A stretch of DNA of 64,000 nt from Camelus dromedarius (Eukaryota). The DNA is taken from positions 76,634,001 to 76,698,000 of the forward strand of contig NC_087436.1 in the NCBI RefSeq assembly GCF_036321535.1, read 5' to 3'. Within the stretch, counting starts at the first letter, position 1. Every line of letters begins with the position of its first letter. The position numbers and the translations under genes were made by a program. The notes under the pieces were generated by a model. The model worked only from the letters and a program-made list of their open reading frames with translations. It ran no database searches and had not been told where the DNA came from. Shown here piece by piece: positions 47,826 to 57,680 of this stretch.

Positions 47826-48644
47826 CAAACAAGCCAAATACTAATAAATATAGGATTTTAAACATCCAACCTATTCCCCGAATGTCAAATATCACGCAGA
47901 ATAAAGGAAGACACCTCTGAAGGAGAGTGAGGGAGATGAAGGGGTCGTCACTGATGAAGCGTTTCTTTGCCTGGATTGAGAGTTAATATGTAAAAAACTG
48001 TGTAAGTGAAACAGAATAGAAATGGAAAATAGTTTTTATTCGGGATAAATAAATTACAAACCACTTACATAATCAGAACAAATAAAAAATATGTTTAGTG
48101 TGTGAACAAGAATAATTATAGTTCCTCAATCAGTCTTGGCATATGAGACAGTAGTTTAAGTCTGATATTTTTGTTTTGATAGATGATATAAAGGGGATGA
48201 AAGGCAAAAAAAGAAAAGAAAAGAAACCTGATTTCTCCTTTTTTAATGTCAGGTAAAATGGGTAATGGTTTATTGAAGAACGTGAATTTCATCAAAGGTC
48301 ATTCAAAGCAAAGCACTATAATGATTCACTTTTTACAGATACTAATTATATTTTCACTCATGCTTTTCATTATTTCAAAATAAAATTGTTCTTCATTTTT
48401 ATGCCAGAACATCTTTACAAAAGTTGTTACAGATTATTTCCAATACCTTTTGCTCAGCCATTTGGCACCATCACTATCCAGGCAACAATGTTCATATGGT
48501 AATAGTTAAATTTGTTTTTCACTAGGGCTCTCTCATCCAGATTTTTCATTTCCAGGCTACACATGCTGAACCCGAGAAAATCTTTTAATTATTTTATTTG
48601 AATATGGATATTTCTAATTCAATTAGTATCAGATATGTTGCTTT

Positions 48645-48692
48645 TTTCTTTTTTCTTTTTCTTTTTCTTTTTTTCTTTTTTTTTTTTTTTTT
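48645..48692. repeat. (CTTTT)n/poly-T tract
   Basis: cttttttcttttttcttttctttttctttttttctttttttttttttttt. Confidence 0.9.
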
Positions 48693-48855
48693 GCTTAAAG
48701 AGTGGTCTTTACTCTACAAATACAAGATTCTTTAGATCTTATTGTTCAGGTTACGGTTAGTCAGGCAAACTTAGGCTTGAGTTTCAGCTCTGCCTCTCCT
48801 TAGCTGCGTGCCGTGAAGAGAAGGTTAACCTCTTTGAAGCTCACTTTCGTCATCT

Positions 48856-49985: not shown

Positions 49986-50031
<46 letters not shown>
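49986..50031. repeat. Compound (TA)n(CA)n microsatellite
   Basis: atatatatatatatatatatacacacacacacacacacacacac. Confidence 0.95.
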
Positions 50032-50899: not shown

Positions 50900-51326
50900 T
50901 CTGGTATATGCTGACATTCACTTCCCAAATTTCCCTTCAGGGATAAAAGACTCATTATCCCACACACTGTAATAGCCCTCGCTGTCAGCCCTTTGGAGGT
51001 TGCCTTAGTTGAAAAGAGCCTCCTTTCCTGAGATCACCCCCCATCTTGAGTAGCCTACATTCGGTGATCACTGAAAAAGGCATACAAAGATCTGATTCTC
51101 TCCCCCGAGCTCAGGACAGATCTCAGGAGTCTTCTGGTCTTCAGTCTTGTCTGCAGGGCAAGCAGAGGTGCTCCACGGATACTGCATCACAGCTCGCATC
51201 TCTGCCCAGTCCTGCCTCACCCTTTTTCCTTCCACAGATACGTTCTCAAGAGCACACTCTGATACACCTCTTGCATGTTAAATCCTTTGAACAGACTCTG
51301 CTTCCTGGGAAACCCAATCTGAAACA
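50900..51326 (+). mobile_element. ERVL LTR, LTR16-family-like
   Basis: Ends in ctctgcttcctgggaaacccaatctgaaaca, typical of LTR16 3' termini, and directly precedes ERVL internal sequence. Confidence 0.7.
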
Positions 51327-51328
51327 AT

Positions 51329-52116
51329 TATGATCAACTGACAGAGGAGGAAAAACTCAGATCTGGTCCACAGACGGGAATATGTAAAACCTTAGGACCA
51401 GCCAGAAAAGTACTGCTACCACCATGCTCCAGCCTTCCTCAAAGATGGCCCCAGATTGGGGTGAAGGAAATTCTCTCAGTGTTCAAAATTATGAGCAGTG
51501 CAGTCTACAGTTTACCAGGCAGAGAGGACAGTGGTTTGAGTTATGACTGTACGTTGACCCCTGTGCATGAAGGAGCAACAACCAATGATCAGAGGCAAAG
51601 AAGTCTGGAGAAGAGGCCAGTAGGTGGAACACTGGAAGTGGCCACAGAATATGCAAATATTTATGTCTCACATGAATGCCCACTGAGATGTATTCACTAC
51701 AAAAGAGGCACTCAGCAACCAACTGGACAAGATGATCCATCTTGCAAGTGTCAACCACCGTATTTACTCAGCCCAGTGGTGCTGACACAGTGAGTTATGA
51801 ATGATGTGTCAGGGATAGAGGCGCTAAATGGACTACCTCGCATCAAGAATGAACTCGCTACTGCTGCTCTAGAGTGCCCTCACACACGCAGCAATGTGGC
51901 GTCATCCCTGAAGAGAAGAGCCAACTGTCTGATTCCAATGTCATTACACTGGAGCTCTTCCACCTTGTGCCATCTTTACTGGAATTGACACCTGGGCTTT
52001 CCTTTTAGCCTTACAGAACCTCCTCCATCACTACAATAAGAGTATTTACCTAATGCTTGATCTATTCACATGGTATCACATCCAACATTGACTTATGCTA
52101 ACAGATTGTTTTTACA
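51329..52116 (+). mobile_element. ERVL-class internal sequence (pol RNase H/integrase remnant, ERV3-16A3/ERVL-E-like), 5' part
   Basis: tatgatcaactgacagaggaggaaaaa (YDQLTEEEK), atatttatgtctcacatgaatgcccac and ctgctctagagtgccc resemble the recalled HERVL pol RNase H and integrase zinc-finger region. Many stops and indels. Confidence 0.75.
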
Positions 52117-52656
52117 TGTTAAGATGTCATATCTGTCTGTTGCAATTCAGGTAGGATGAAGCACGTGCTCTGTGGCGTTGAGTTCTAGTGAGTGGGCATG
52201 AGCTATGGACAGCTTTTCCTTCTCATGGGCCCAGTGTTGAGGCAGCCCCATCTTCTGAGAAGTCTGCAGAAGAAGCCTCTCTGTGGTTTGGGAACTTAGT
52301 GACATATTTTCTCTTCTAGCTCTAATGTCATATTTCCCTCATTTTCAGTTTCAGTGATGTCATTGAAACTTTCAGCTTTGATCATCTCATTCTGCCAGGG
52401 GATGGAGACACACCCTATAAGAAATTGATCATAAAAAGTGCTATCTGTGGTGTCCAGGGAGTCTGCTTTTACCAGGGAGAACTGCTTAAAATCCAGGACA
52501 CCCTTACAACAAACCATAGGAGGATCAGGACAGAGAGGAGGAGCTATTTGCTTTCAGCCTCCTGAAGCTAGTGTCCTTAAACACAGGGCGTTATTTTATT
52601 CCAGCTACTGCATGGCCCTCATCGCCCAGCTGTTGCCTCAGACTCTTGGTGAATAT
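52117..52656 (-). pseudogene. GRK4: GRK4 processed pseudogene fragment (last coding exons plus probable 3'UTR)
   Basis: Minus-strand translation IFTKSLRQQLGDEGHAVAGIK*RPVFKDTSFRRLKAN-(frameshift ~52543)[104 protein letters not shown] matches the recalled GRK4 C-terminus ([61 protein letters not shown]…[20 protein letters not shown]…[21 protein letters not shown]). [11 protein letters not shown] and RGFFxRLxRRxGCL distinguish GRK4 from GRK5/6. In-frame stops at 52593-52591 and 52298-52296. Intronless. Confidence 0.9.
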
Positions 52657-52800
52657 TTACAGTGCTCACCGTCTGAGCTCCAGCAGCTGCGCAGACCCAC
52701 TTCCTAGACGTGCTGTGCCGTGCCTGCCCCAGGGCCTGTACGCACACCTTGTGCTCACTTTCTCTCTGTCTCTCGTTCTCACTCTTGTTCTTGCTCTCTC

Positions 52801-53369
52801 TTAAAATTCAAGTAGTCTTTATTCAGAGTTGAAAAATGTACCATACTGCATTATTGCAAATTTTTTTCTGGTACAAAACACTTTGCAGCTGGTGAGAAGG
52901 CGATACAAATTTGATTTTTAAATTCATTACTCTAAATTATTCTTACAGGACTTTGCAAATTCAGAATTTGCAAACTGCATTTACTTTTTCTAAATTGCCC
53001 ATTGTCCTTGCTGTTCCTAAAGCTAAAGCAGCTGTGCCAGGGAGAAGGAAAGGGAGGAGAAGGTAGCAAACGTCAAGGGACTTTCAGTTCTCATCCAGTG
53101 CCCGCAAACTTCAGAGCATCAGCCTGGCTCTTTCCGTAATCAAAACCCAGCTCCTCACAGGTCTGGATGGCTCTCTTACCAAAAATCCCTGTCTTGTGAT
53201 CACCATTAACCATCAAAACATTTGCAGAGCAGTTTGGTTTTACTGAATGATTTGCAAAAGGAATTTTGTTACCCTTGTGGGTTGCATCCACCACAAAACC
53301 ATTATTTAGGTTAAACATAAAGCAACACATGTATTTATTGTATACTTTCTTCTGTCTGCTTCATCTTGA
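52801..53369 (-). pseudogene. EZH2: EZH2 processed pseudogene, 5'-truncated (C-terminal SET-domain exons plus 3'UTR)
   Basis: Minus-strand translation QDEADRR-(4-nt deletion)[89 protein letters not shown] aligns with the recalled EZH2 C-terminus (…[87 protein letters not shown]). Premature TGA at 53093-53091, native stop at 53075-53073. It is followed by EZH2-like 3'UTR with AATAAA (+ strand tttatt, 52818-52823). No introns across the last recalled exon junctions. The MC, IQT and xxxP* residues and the UTR favour EZH2 over EZH1. Confidence 0.95.
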
Positions 53370-53373
53370 CAAG

Positions 53374-53836
53374 AACAGACTAATTTTACAGCAAAAGAAA
53401 TAGAAGAATGGATACGTATCCACGGAGTCCATTACACTTATTACATACCTCATCACCCAGAAGTAGTTTGCCTGAGCAGAGTGGCTGGCTGTAGAACAGG
53501 ATAGGAGAAAGGCTTGGCAAAGGCACCAGCTCAGGTACAGCACCCTGTAAGGTTGGCACGTAGTCTTCCACAATGCGGATTTTATTCTGAACCCTGAGGA
53601 TAAAGTCTAGGGTCAGTCCACCAGGCACACAACCATTACTAGCCACTTATAAGGGAAATTCAAAATGGGTCTTGGGGGAGAGAAGATACTGATGATGGCT
53701 TTAGGACTAGCTACAGCAGTGAAGACTGAAGTTCATTGAACTCACCCTCTTTTATTAAGTCCTTGCAAGTTTGGCTACTACCTTGAAAGGGACACTGGGA
53801 AGGGAATGAAAGAGACCGAATGGTGACAGGGATGAA
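53374..53836 (+). mobile_element. ERVL-class internal sequence, 3' part (continues the 5' part after the retrocopy insert)
   Basis: ttttacagcaaaagaaatagaagaatggatacgtatccacggagtcc…catcacccagaag corresponds to the ERVL integrase core (FTAKE…W…HG…HHPE) at the point where the upstream part breaks off. Ends in a purine-rich tract before an LTR. Confidence 0.7.
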
Positions 53837-54391
53837 TGGCAGCAGATACTGAGCTCTACTTCACGTTGTCTCCACGTCCCACCCCAGAACTGCTGTGCTG
53901 AATGGTTCTTTGACGGCGTCAGCCAGCTTCCCACAGGTGCAACCTGACAGTGCTCAACTCAGGCCTGTGTTACTATCTTTCAGTTCCTACTGTTGGTTTT
54001 TTGGTTTTTTGGGGTTTTTTTTGCTGTATGTTTGGTTTTGGCTTTGATGCACCTGCACCGGCAGTCTGTAAATACGACTGCACTATTCCAAAGTGCAGGG
54101 GAGGATCGGTGAGGCCTCTCTTGACGAGGCAGAAGTGAAGGAATAGGTGTCCCCTCTTTTGATACCTTTTGGTCTTATCTGAAACACAGACCAGATGGCT
54201 CTTTAGAAGGAACCACAGTGTCGGCCGACGCCGTCCCTTGGGTTGCTTCTCCTCCTTCCTGTTCTAACCCTCGACCGCTTCTTCTTGCTCCTGGAATCAC
54301 TTGCTTCTTGTTTTACAGCGATCCATGAATCAACTACTGATTACAAAAACCTTTGTCTTAGAATCTGCCTTCAGAGAATATCTCAGACACA
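53837..54391 (+). mobile_element. ERVL LTR, LTR16-family-like (3' LTR)
   Basis: Starts tggcagcagatac after a purine tract and ends gtcttagaatctgccttcagagaatatctcagacaca, an LTR16-like terminus. Confidence 0.6.
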
Positions 54392-57434: not shown

Positions 57435-57680
57435 GGGTGTCCAGTTACCAGCTCTGCTGTGTTTAGCTCTGTGGGCTTGACCACATAAGTTACCTCTCTG
57501 GATCTGTTTTCTTGTGGGTAAAATAGGTAAAATAAAAGCTAAATAAATAATAATAAATAATAAAATAAAAATAATAAAATAAAATAATAAATAAATAATA
57601 AAAGCTAGTGCGATTGCTACAACATTTAATTAGATCCTATGATATAGTATATATAAAGATCCTTGTTCACTAACACATGC
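57435..57680 (+). mobile_element. MIR SINE with an internal (TAAAA/TAA)n expansion at ~57527-57603
   Basis: ccagctctgctgtgtttagctctgtgggcttgacc…acctctctggatctgttttctt…gtaaaatagg followed by an A-rich simple repeat. Confidence 0.65.

What the first reader, a model, noticed from the sequence alone, without database searches (positions are those of the whole stretch)
52117..53373. Chimeric retrocopy: spliced EZH2 3' end fused head-to-tail to a spliced GRK4 3' end
Seen in sequence, reading the minus strand: EZH2 SET-domain C-terminal coding sequence (53369-53073), EZH2 3'UTR with AATAAA (to ~52801), a GA-rich tract (~52800-52760), ~100 bp of GC-rich unassigned sequence, then GRK4 C-terminal coding sequence (52656-~52200) and a probable 3'UTR. 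Both parts are intronless, in the same orientation and heavily decayed. Established: L1 ORF2p can switch templates during target-primed reverse transcription, and GRK4 is testis-enriched while EZH2 is expressed in germ cells, so both mRNAs could be available in the germ line. Inference: reverse transcription began on GRK4 mRNA and jumped onto the EZH2 mRNA poly(A)/3' end, giving an mRNA-mRNA chimera of two unrelated genes in one event. Such fusions are much rarer than U6/L1-type chimeras.
Basis: partly seen in the sequence, partly recalled or inferred. Interest (0 to 1): 0.8.

Follow-up and report, generated by a model that had tools for sequence, protein, structure and literature searches.

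The report
Ancient two-gene EZH2-GRK4 retrocopy
A dead, intron-less copy of the tail ends of two unrelated genes, EZH2 and GRK4, sits fused head-to-tail in a camel genome; it was probably pasted in as one unit when a jumping-gene enzyme hopped from one messenger RNA to another, a rare but known kind of copying accident, though two insertions in quick succession cannot be ruled out.

Summary
On the minus strand, four spliced EZH2 exons with 3'UTR (53372-52804) are followed by an A/G tract and four spliced GRK4 exons. Both parents lie in the same camel genome. The 'unassigned' GC-rich piece is GRK4 intron 12 joined to exon 13, so the GRK4 template was a non-canonical transcript. One 14/17 target-site duplication brackets both halves (chance 0.3-0.8%); no inner pair was found. 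The raw divergence gap (16% vs 28%) shrinks at constrained sites to 20/181 vs 20/142, p=0.50. The GRK4 half mostly lacks camel and cetartiodactyl residues, and decayed relatives of each half occur in unnamed other genomes, so it is old. Best reading: one L1 event with a template jump (0.55). Rivals: GRK4 nested in an earlier EZH2 copy's poly(A), which gives the same outer duplication (0.22); read-through from an EZH2 copy once in the GRK4 intron (0.13). Joint presence in other species and RNA support were not obtained. Non-functional. The scan had not noted this sequence elsewhere.

The parts
53374..53390 (-). Upstream copy of the target-site duplication (17 nt, or 14 nt if the first 3 nt of the downstream copy come from the GRK4 UTR); begins at a GT|AAAA site resembling the L1 endonuclease consensus TT|AAAA
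   Evidence: 14/17 match to 52100-52116; 12/1500 and 5/1500 random draws reach the score; consensus as given in PMC11702581
53073..53372 (-). 5'-truncated EZH2 coding sequence (C-terminal SET region; last four exons spliced). Broken by a 4-nt deletion near the start and a premature stop at 53093-53091; the RFANHS and ELFFDY motifs are altered
52804..53072 (-). EZH2 3'UTR with AATAAA at 52823-52818; similarity to the parent ends about 14 nt after the signal
   Evidence: 28 of 261 positions differ from the parent; junction shown
52749..52803 (-). A/G-rich tract (55 nt: A28 G18 C6 T3): decayed EZH2 poly(A), A-rich GRK4 intron 12 sequence, or both
   Evidence: Anchored alignment to the parent intron is reached by 44/2000 mononucleotide shuffles, 222/2000 dinucleotide shuffles and 59/2000 random subjects; the best local alignment extends to 52792. 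Inconclusive
52665..52748 (-). Segment copied from GRK4 intron 12 (parent G000:C1:121482812-121482722, same sense as GRK4, 1.1 kb upstream of exon 13)
   Evidence: 75% over 91 columns, E 7e-9; 0/1000 shuffles reach the score; the same segment precedes the exon-13 sequence in unnamed protein P0137
52656..52664 (-). 9 nt between the intron-derived segment and exon 13 that do not match today's parent (likely end of the non-canonical exon, diverged)
   Evidence: interpretation is inference
52248..52655 (-). GRK4 exons 13-15, spliced; broken by a 5-nt deletion and stops; keeps a codon in exon 15 that the camel parent has lost
   Evidence: exon numbers counted back from the 16-exon structure in PMC5015388
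52114..52247 (-). GRK4 last exon and 3'UTR; the poly(A) signal has decayed (52141-52136) and there is essentially no poly(A) tail
   Evidence: alignment; junction
52100..52116 (-). Downstream copy of the target-site duplication

Best explanation
A dead bipartite processed pseudogene made by L1 ORF2p in one target-primed reverse transcription event in an early laurasiatherian or stem-cetartiodactyl germ line. Shown: both halves are spliced mRNA 3' ends in one orientation, one target-site duplication at an endonuclease-like site brackets them, and their decay is not significantly different. Inferred: the endonuclease nicked a GT|AAAA site; the T-rich end primed on the very start of the poly(A) of a non-canonical GRK4 RNA (intron-12 exon spliced to exons 13-16). 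After about 650-700 nt the cDNA, T-rich where the template is A/G-rich, left that RNA and re-primed on the poly(A) or 3' end of an EZH2 mRNA. Synthesis went on for about 570 nt, stopped, and was joined to the other target end. It has no coding function: it has decayed at non-degenerate sites as fast as in the UTR.
For: One outer duplication, 14/17, chance 0.3-0.8%. No EZH2-only pair (best 6/10, reached by 120/120 random draws) and no significant GRK4-only pair (9/11, reached by 14/60). No middle copy of the duplication (best 8/17 against the upstream copy). Decay at non-degenerate sites of conserved codons: EZH2 20/181, GRK4 20/142 (codons conserved in at least 80% of 21 other mammals), Fisher p 0.50; without CpG-prone sites 14/137 vs 13/111, p 0.84; thresholds 70-100% gave p 0.26-0.84; stratified by base class p 0.34. 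The GRK4 half is if anything the more decayed, whereas both main rivals make it the younger half. The A-rich tract lies in the middle and the 3' end has almost no poly(A), the reverse of what nesting predicts. No EZH2 remnant in 60 kb of the camel GRK4 locus beyond a 23-nt match at E 0.3. Precedent: nine de novo insertions with two RNA sources in cells where 99 L1 and 235 pseudogene insertions were counted, with same-orientation cases ascribed to template switching or RNA ligation (PMC11702581, section 7 and passages); template jumping by purified ORF2p (PMC10830420, passages).
Against: The outer duplication does not separate this from nesting in a poly(A) tail. The age test has little power: odds ratio 0.72, intervals 7-17% and 9-21%, so a gap of many million years would pass unseen. 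Both halves were never seen together in another genome: P0129 (EZH2 half) and P0137 (GRK4 half) lie on different contigs of unnamed origin. P0129 shares 4 of 15 changes with the camel EZH2 half, while P0137 and P0143 share only one residue with the camel GRK4 half that is absent from all 22 functional GRK4s (P0150 two); if these come from one lineage, that leans towards an older EZH2 half. If the tract is GRK4 intron, the argument from its position fails. There is no RNA evidence for the intron-12 transcript. One survey of snRNA copies argued that template switching may be largely restricted to U6/U6atac (PMC4476161, passages).
Confidence: 0.55

Rival explanations
1. Two insertions in quick succession: a 5'-truncated EZH2 retrocopy came first and made the visible duplication; a GRK4 retrocopy then landed in its young poly(A) tail. 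The second duplication was a run of A and has since eroded.
For: It gives the same outer duplication. The EZH2 3' end followed by poly(A) forms a TT|AAAA endonuclease consensus (parent and copy ends). The equal-age test is weak. The fraction of shared changes is higher for the EZH2 relative than for the GRK4 relatives, though the species are unknown. PMC4476161 (passages) names a second insertion into the 3' end of a first as the standing alternative for multi-part chimeras.
Against: It predicts the longer A tract at the 3' end, where at most five A remain, four of them inside the duplication. It predicts a younger GRK4 half, but the point estimate is older and that half carries pre-cetartiodactyl residues. 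It needs the only GRK4 retrocopy found in this genome to hit the tail of the only EZH2 3'-end retrocopy found (both searches give lower bounds).
Confidence: 0.22
2. Read-through (3' transduction with splicing): an EZH2 retrocopy once sat, in sense, in GRK4 intron 12. A hybrid transcript ran through its weak poly(A) signal into the intron, spliced to exon 13, and was retroposed as one RNA. The intronic EZH2 copy was later lost or never fixed.
For: It explains without an extra promoter why the GRK4 half starts in intron sequence. The extended intron alignment begins at an A-rich point preceded by GT in the parent, which resembles an endonuclease site.
Against: No EZH2 sequence in the camel GRK4 locus today. 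The EZH2 half is not more decayed than the GRK4 half, so it could have stayed in the intron only briefly. It needs an exon of 700 nt or more that carries an intact AATAAA. An A-rich start is also expected from a jump onto poly(A) (inference).
Confidence: 0.13
3. One insertion, but the two RNAs were joined before reverse transcription (RNA ligation), or two cDNAs were end-joined.
For: RtcB joins U6 to L1 and other RNAs before retrotransposition (PMC6789731, passages); PMC11702581 lists ligation as an alternative for same-orientation cases. The sequence alone cannot tell it from a jump.
Against: RtcB needs a 2',3'-cyclic phosphate and a 5'-OH (PMC6789731, passages). The EZH2 part ends at its natural polyadenylation point, where a 3'-OH tail is expected (own knowledge). 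The junction is not at an EZH2 splice donor, unlike the trans-splicing candidates of 10.1101/2025.02.02.635956 (section 24).
Confidence: 0.06
4. GRK4 copy first, EZH2 copy second at the same endonuclease site directly upstream.
For: The GRK4 half is nominally more decayed (14.1% vs 11.0%). A weak 10/17 likeness to the downstream duplication copy lies at 52759-52743.
Against: It needs a third copy of the duplication after the EZH2 tail that matches the upstream copy well; the best match is 8/17 (p 0.005 at the expected identity). The weak likeness overlaps sequence already explained by GRK4 intron 12.
Confidence: 0.03

Closest known systems
Bipartite chimeric retropseudogenes made by L1 (U6/L1 and U6/processed-pseudogene chimeras; PMC4476161 and PMC6789731, passages; first described by Buzdin and colleagues, paper not held, cited through those two)
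   Same: Two unrelated RNA copies directly fused in one orientation, bracketed by one target-site duplication at an L1 endonuclease-like site, found once in the genome, dead on arrival.
   Different: Neither partner is an snRNA or an L1. The 5' partner is the polyadenylation end of an mRNA, not a U6 ending in a cyclic phosphate. The 3' partner is a non-canonical spliced mRNA.
De novo two-transcript L1 insertions in cultured cells (PMC11702581, section 7, Fig. 3 legend)
   Same: Sequences from two RNA sources in one insertion with target-site duplication; same-orientation cases are ascribed to template switching between mRNAs or to ligation.
   Different: Those are somatic events under induced L1 expression with known single-event status. 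This one is an ancient germ-line copy whose single-event status is inferred. I did not see their Fig. S7, so I cannot say how many of the nine were same-orientation mRNA-mRNA.
mRNA/LINE-1 5' chimeras (10.1101/2025.02.02.635956, sections 20 and 24)
   Same: mRNA-derived spliced exons 5' of a second retroposed RNA under one duplication; sequential versus single origin decided by multi-species alignment.
   Different: There the mRNA part is usually the first exons, often ending at a splice donor, and the partner is a near full-length L1 (trans-splicing proposed). Here it is the last exons and 3'UTR, and there is no L1 sequence.
Ordinary processed pseudogenes, and retroposons nested in poly(A) tails
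   Same: Each half alone is an ordinary 5'-truncated processed pseudogene.
   Different: Two of them share one visible duplication; nesting remains the main rival.

Membership tests
L1-made processed pseudogene | Introns of the parent gene precisely absent | tested here: met
   Three EZH2 and three GRK4 exon junctions are continuous in the copy
L1-made processed pseudogene | Target-site duplication at a TT|AAAA-like site | tested here: met
   14/17, GT|AAAA start; 12/1500 and 5/1500 random draws reach the score. An empty site in another species was not seen
L1-made processed pseudogene | 3' poly(A) tail | tested here: inconclusive
   Similarity ends about 22 nt after the decayed GRK4 poly(A) signal, but at most five A follow, four of them inside the duplication
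L1-made processed pseudogene | Neutral decay, no coding function | tested here: met
   Non-degenerate sites 20/181 vs UTR 28/261 in EZH2; stops and frameshifts in both halves
Chimeric (template-switch) retropseudogene | Two RNAs from unlinked genes fused in the same orientation | tested here: met
   Parents on C7 and on C1, the latter 45 Mb from the copy
Chimeric (template-switch) retropseudogene | One duplication around the whole, none around either part | tested here: met
   an eroded all-A inner duplication would not be seen
Chimeric (template-switch) retropseudogene | Both parts of equal age | tested here: inconclusive
   No significant difference (p 0.26-0.84; p 0.34) but wide intervals
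Chimeric (template-switch) retropseudogene | Both parts present together or absent together at the orthologous site in relatives | not testable with these tools
   No related mammal genomes are held; relatives of each half were seen only as separate unnamed proteins
Chimeric (template-switch) retropseudogene | Junction made during reverse transcription rather than in RNA or in an earlier DNA insertion | tested here: inconclusive
   Origin of the A/G tract unresolved; no EZH2 remnant in the camel GRK4 locus
U6-type RtcB ligation chimera | 5' partner ends in a 2',3'-cyclic phosphate (U6 or cleaved RNA) | tested here: not met
   The 5' partner ends at the EZH2 polyadenylation point; requirement from PMC6789731; end chemistry inferred from the position
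Functional chimeric retrogene | Intact fused reading frame or purifying selection, and expression | tested here: not met
   The EZH2 stop and UTR separate the halves; both frames are broken; decay is neutral. Expression of the copy was not tested

The most novel reading that the evidence does not exclude
A germ-line-fixed mRNA-to-mRNA template jump by L1 ORF2p, older than the cetartiodactyl radiation and possibly shared across several laurasiatherian orders. The jump was guided by an A/G-rich stretch of one RNA whose T-rich cDNA re-primed on another mRNA's poly(A). The copy would also be a fossil of an undescribed, conserved germ-line GRK4 transcript that starts in intron 12 and lacks most of the kinase domain. 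If so, head-to-tail retrocopy pairs under one duplication form an overlooked, countable class in mammalian genomes.
Probability: 0.3. Interest if true: 0.6.

Novelty: new member of a known kind. Interest (0 to 1): 0.4.

Why it matters
It does nothing today. Its value is as a record. If it is one event, it is a fixed germ-line example of L1 reverse transcriptase joining two unrelated mRNAs; I found this reported only for de novo insertions in cultured cells and, in genomes, for snRNA or L1 partners (searches; the library lacks most subscription papers). It preserves a GRK4 RNA form (intron-12 sequence spliced to exon 13) that is not among the four human isoforms listed in PMC5015388 and that was not found in print; this is directly testable in testis RNA. 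Because it appears to date from near the laurasiatherian radiation, whole-genome alignments could decide single versus sequential origin, and the site could serve as one presence/absence marker.

Tried and rejected
RNA reads on the parent GRK4 locus: runs were listed, but no reads were laid, so there is no RNA evidence either way. Orthologous DNA: a motif scan of metagenome contigs found 0 matches. A protein-guided scan kept 80 of 81 confirmed loci; DNA comparison showed no copy of this cassette among them, and the only one matching beyond the EZH2 coding part (L099) is an intron-containing EZH2 gene, used only as an outgroup (copy-private differences 34/300 coding, 21/251 UTR). Earlier scan notes: nothing by place or sequence; five notes by words were other kinds of chimera on other DNA and were not used. 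Protein tree of 26 rows: the camel copy is a long branch outside the starred cetartiodactyl clade and on the side of P0137/P0143/P0150 (support 71/80, not starred); AU tests rejected neither copy+camel gene (p 0.12) nor copy+cetartiodactyls (p 0.45), so the tree is not used as proof of age. The idea that the GC-rich piece is GRK4 exon 12 was dropped once the intron match was found. The idea that it comes from the start of intron 13 (prompted by P0042) was rejected: 154/1000 shuffles reach that score. Alternative upstream exons in annotated GRK4 isoforms of cat, macaque, langur and narwhal, and in two unnamed proteins (6 tested), do not match the intron-12 segment. A search with the GRK4 half for longer proteins gave only 2 distant kinases. 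Flank searches found no paralogous empty site. No Rfam family or tRNA in the window. No paper holds EZH2, GRK4 and retrocopy together. Buzdin 2003 was not held. Raw identity as an age measure was rejected because the GRK4 parent has changed many residues since the copy was made.

Full report
Setting. The window is G000:C1:76634001-76698000 of a 2.3-Gb assembly. The GRK4 parent's exon 13 translates to a peptide identical to proteins named GRK4 of Camelus dromedarius and C. ferus, so this is a camel. The window is AT-rich and has no Rfam family or tRNA; its 11 stop-to-stop frames of 110 codons or more were not tested against protein families.

Observation. A search of the genome with 52100-53400 gave 7 matches: the locus itself, four exons of EZH2 on C7 and two of GRK4 on C1, 45 Mb away. 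A more sensitive comparison with 20 kb of the EZH2 locus and 60 kb of the GRK4 locus gave, on the minus strand: EZH2 exons at 53372-53298, 53298-53221, 53215-53136 and 53129-52804 (81-92%), then GRK4 exons at 52655-52524, 52515-52386 and 52387-52247 (69-74%). The last GRK4 exon and UTR align weakly to about 52114. All six junctions are intron-less. The translations hit solved EZH2 (E 1e-38) and GRK4 (E 6e-24) first. Both frames are broken. Searches with the parents found no other GRK4 3'-end copy among 40 of 194 candidates scored and no other copy of the last EZH2 exon among 2 of 2; both are lower bounds.

The 'unassigned' piece. Window 52748-52665 matches the GRK4 locus on the coding strand 1.1 kb upstream of the acceptor of the first copied exon (75% over 91 columns, E 7e-9; 0 of 1000 shuffles). 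Counting back from the 16 exons given in PMC5015388 (passages), this is intron 12 joined to exon 13, with 9 unmatched nt between. The polypyrimidine tract next to exon 13 is absent from the copy, so this is not intron retention; a splice from an exon inside intron 12 is the simplest reading (inference). Of 295 stored proteins compared with this segment, P0137 gave the best hits (two colinear stretches of 8/11, E 1e-5 each); six other proteins gave single chance-level hits at E 1e-4 to 4e-3. In P0137 these stretches run directly into exons 13-15. P0137 is itself a decayed copy on a 1323-nt contig of unnamed origin; I picked it out by eye among 8 of the 147 new proteins that I printed. It may be an orthologue of this very insertion, so it does not prove independently that the short RNA was a normal transcript. 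No RNA reads were obtained.

The A/G tract (52803-52749). It follows the EZH2 AATAAA by about 15 nt, where a poly(A) tail belongs. But it also aligns weakly with the parent intron just upstream of the matched segment: 44/2000 mononucleotide shuffles, 222/2000 dinucleotide shuffles and 59/2000 random subjects reach the score, and the best local alignment runs to 52792. It may be poly(A), A-rich intron, or about 11 nt of tail plus intron. This is unresolved.

Boundaries. A 17-nt direct repeat, 14 identical, lies at 53374-53390 and 52100-52116, 1-2 nt from the EZH2 start and at the GRK4 3' end. With the same search space, 12 of 1500 and 5 of 1500 random sites score as well (an earlier run gave 1/250, probably a self-overlap, and 0/250). 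It starts at GT|AAAA, close to the TT|AAAA consensus given in PMC11702581. No pair was found around EZH2 alone (best 6/10; 120/120 random draws reach it) or GRK4 alone (9/11; 14/60), and no third copy in the middle (8/17 against the upstream copy, 10/17 against the downstream copy). Three mismatches in 14-17 nt fit about 10% decay per copy.

Age of the halves. Raw differences are 48/300 for EZH2 coding, 28/261 for its UTR and 113/404 for GRK4 exons 13-15. That looks like different ages, but GRK4 itself evolves fast. At non-degenerate positions of codons conserved in at least 80% of 21 other mammals (one protein per species, chosen from the 120 listed), where a difference must have arisen in the copy, the counts are 20/181 (11.0%, interval 6.9-16.5) and 20/142 (14.1%, 8.8-20.9), Fisher p 0.50. 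All EZH2 codons were counted as conserved; the parent peptide agrees with solved EZH2 over the stretch shown. Without CpG-prone sites: 14/137 and 13/111, p 0.84; other thresholds gave p 0.26-0.69. Stratified by base class: p 0.34, odds ratio 0.72. The halves are thus compatible with one age, but the test is weak. Non-degenerate sites decay as fast as the UTR, so there was no coding selection.

Absolute age. At 17 GRK4 positions where the camel differs from the majority of 16 non-cetartiodactyls, one is gapped in the copy; of the other 16 the copy is closer to the outgroup residue at 12, to the camel at 1, and tied at 3. Among the 7 positions that the camel shares with other cetartiodactyls the split is 5, 1, 1. 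So the GRK4 RNA was copied before most cetartiodactyl-specific changes; one search shows a mix of states shared with horse/rhino/cat and older states. The protein tree is consistent with this but does not prove it. For EZH2, 1 of the 8 proteins, P0129 (9545-nt contig, unnamed), shares 4 of 15 amino-acid changes with the camel copy (15 of 1500 simulated independent pairs share 4 or more). It also shares two residues in a shifted frame at its tail, starts its EZH2 likeness at the same codon, and has the same Val-Lys just upstream. It is most likely the orthologous insertion in a distant relative, with 11 private changes on each side. P0137, P0143 and P0150 form a starred clade of decayed GRK4 copies and share with the camel copy an Ile-to-Phe change absent from all 22 functional GRK4s. 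Together these place the insertion before the cetartiodactyl radiation, roughly 65-80 million years ago (dates recalled, not from a call). The two halves were not seen on one contig in any other genome.

Mechanism. L1 ORF2p makes template-jumping products in vitro (PMC10830420, passages). In cells with induced L1, nine insertions held sequence from two RNAs, among 99 L1 and 235 pseudogene insertions counted; same-orientation ones were ascribed to template switching or prior ligation (PMC11702581, section 7 and passages; Fig. S7 not seen, and it bears on how many were mRNA-mRNA). GRK4 is expressed in testis among a few tissues (PMC5015388); EZH2 expression in germ cells is recalled. My best reading (0.55) is one event: priming at the start of the GRK4 poly(A), copying to the A/G-rich 5' part of the intron-derived exon, re-priming of the T-rich cDNA end on EZH2 poly(A), then truncation. 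The steps at the junction are inferred. The main rival (0.22) is a GRK4 copy nested in the tail of a slightly older EZH2 copy, which leaves the same outer duplication; against it are the missing 3' A tract and the GRK4 half not being younger; for it are the TT|AAAA site at the EZH2 tail and the higher shared fraction in P0129 than in the GRK4 relatives (species unknown). A read-through from an EZH2 copy once inside GRK4 intron 12 (0.13) would explain the intronic start neatly but has left no trace in the camel gene. RNA ligation or cDNA end-joining (0.06; requirements in PMC6789731, passages) and GRK4-first (0.03) are less likely. A single insertion at this site, by any route, totals about 0.74.

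Comparison with what is known. It works like the bipartite chimeric retropseudogenes described for U6/L1 and U6/pseudogene pairs (PMC4476161, passages; PMC6789731) and like mRNA/L1 chimeras (10.1101/2025.02.02.635956, outline and sections 20 and 24), but neither partner is an snRNA or an L1. A review (PMC5470649, passages) mentions multi-transcript chimeric retrocopies for LTR elements. PMC9435743 and PMC2912911 (passages) did not describe such a case. Five searches showed no fixed mammalian mRNA-mRNA example in their listings, of which I read passages in only some papers, and none holds EZH2, GRK4 and retrocopy together; the library lacks most subscription papers and the original Buzdin survey. 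Membership of 'processed pseudogene' is met except for a clear tail; membership of 'template-switch chimera' is met for structure, inconclusive for age and junction, and untested for joint presence.

Verdict. Real, old, dead, and most likely a single L1 copying accident that joined two mRNAs, with the added fossil of an unusual GRK4 RNA. New member of a known kind; interest 0.4, up to 0.6 if mammal-wide alignments confirm one event and testis RNA confirms the short GRK4 transcript.

Noticed in passing
window 51182-51324 and about 54240-54380: Old repeat remnants on both sides of the cassette. The first matches G000:C2:105.8 Mb at 70%. By recalled consensus both look like ancient ERVL-type solo-LTR fragments (LTR16/LTR33-like); the name comes from memory, not from a call.
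   Followed up: partly
P0137, P0143, P0150: Three unnamed decayed GRK4 3'-end copies that form a starred clade; P0137 carries the same intron-12-to-exon-13 join. Either orthologues of this insertion in other mammals or a second retrocopy of the same short RNA.
   Followed up: partly
P0129: Unnamed decayed EZH2 piece that shares derived residues, truncation point and flank likeness with the camel copy; its 9.5-kb contig should show whether the GRK4 half follows.
   Followed up: partly
P0022: A 150-aa GRK4 from an unnamed 1.1-kb contig starts with three unrelated residues directly before exon 13, hinting at another short GRK4 transcript; several annotated isoforms (cat, macaque, langur, narwhal) also have non-canonical sequence before exon 13, none matching the intron-12 segment.
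   Followed up: partly
G000:C1:121477501-121487500 (L017): The camel GRK4 3' region lies within 2 Mb of the contig end, is GC-rich (mostly 55-69%) and has changed many residues and lost one codon of exon 15 since the copy was made; fast subtelomeric evolution is inferred.
   Followed up: partly
P0160, P0138 and their clusters: Dolphin and false killer whale GRK4 models are short (185-305 aa); the dolphin one reads exon 13 in a shifted frame, which suggests GRK4 decay in some toothed whales.
   Followed up: no
P0124 cluster: A second, younger decayed EZH2 3'-end copy (4-6 changes) seen in several unnamed contigs; not related to this insertion.
   Followed up: partly
window 48638-48696, 50006-50031, 57520-57603: T-rich run, (AC)13 and an A/T-rich repeat, probably retroposon tails and a microsatellite.
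   Followed up: no
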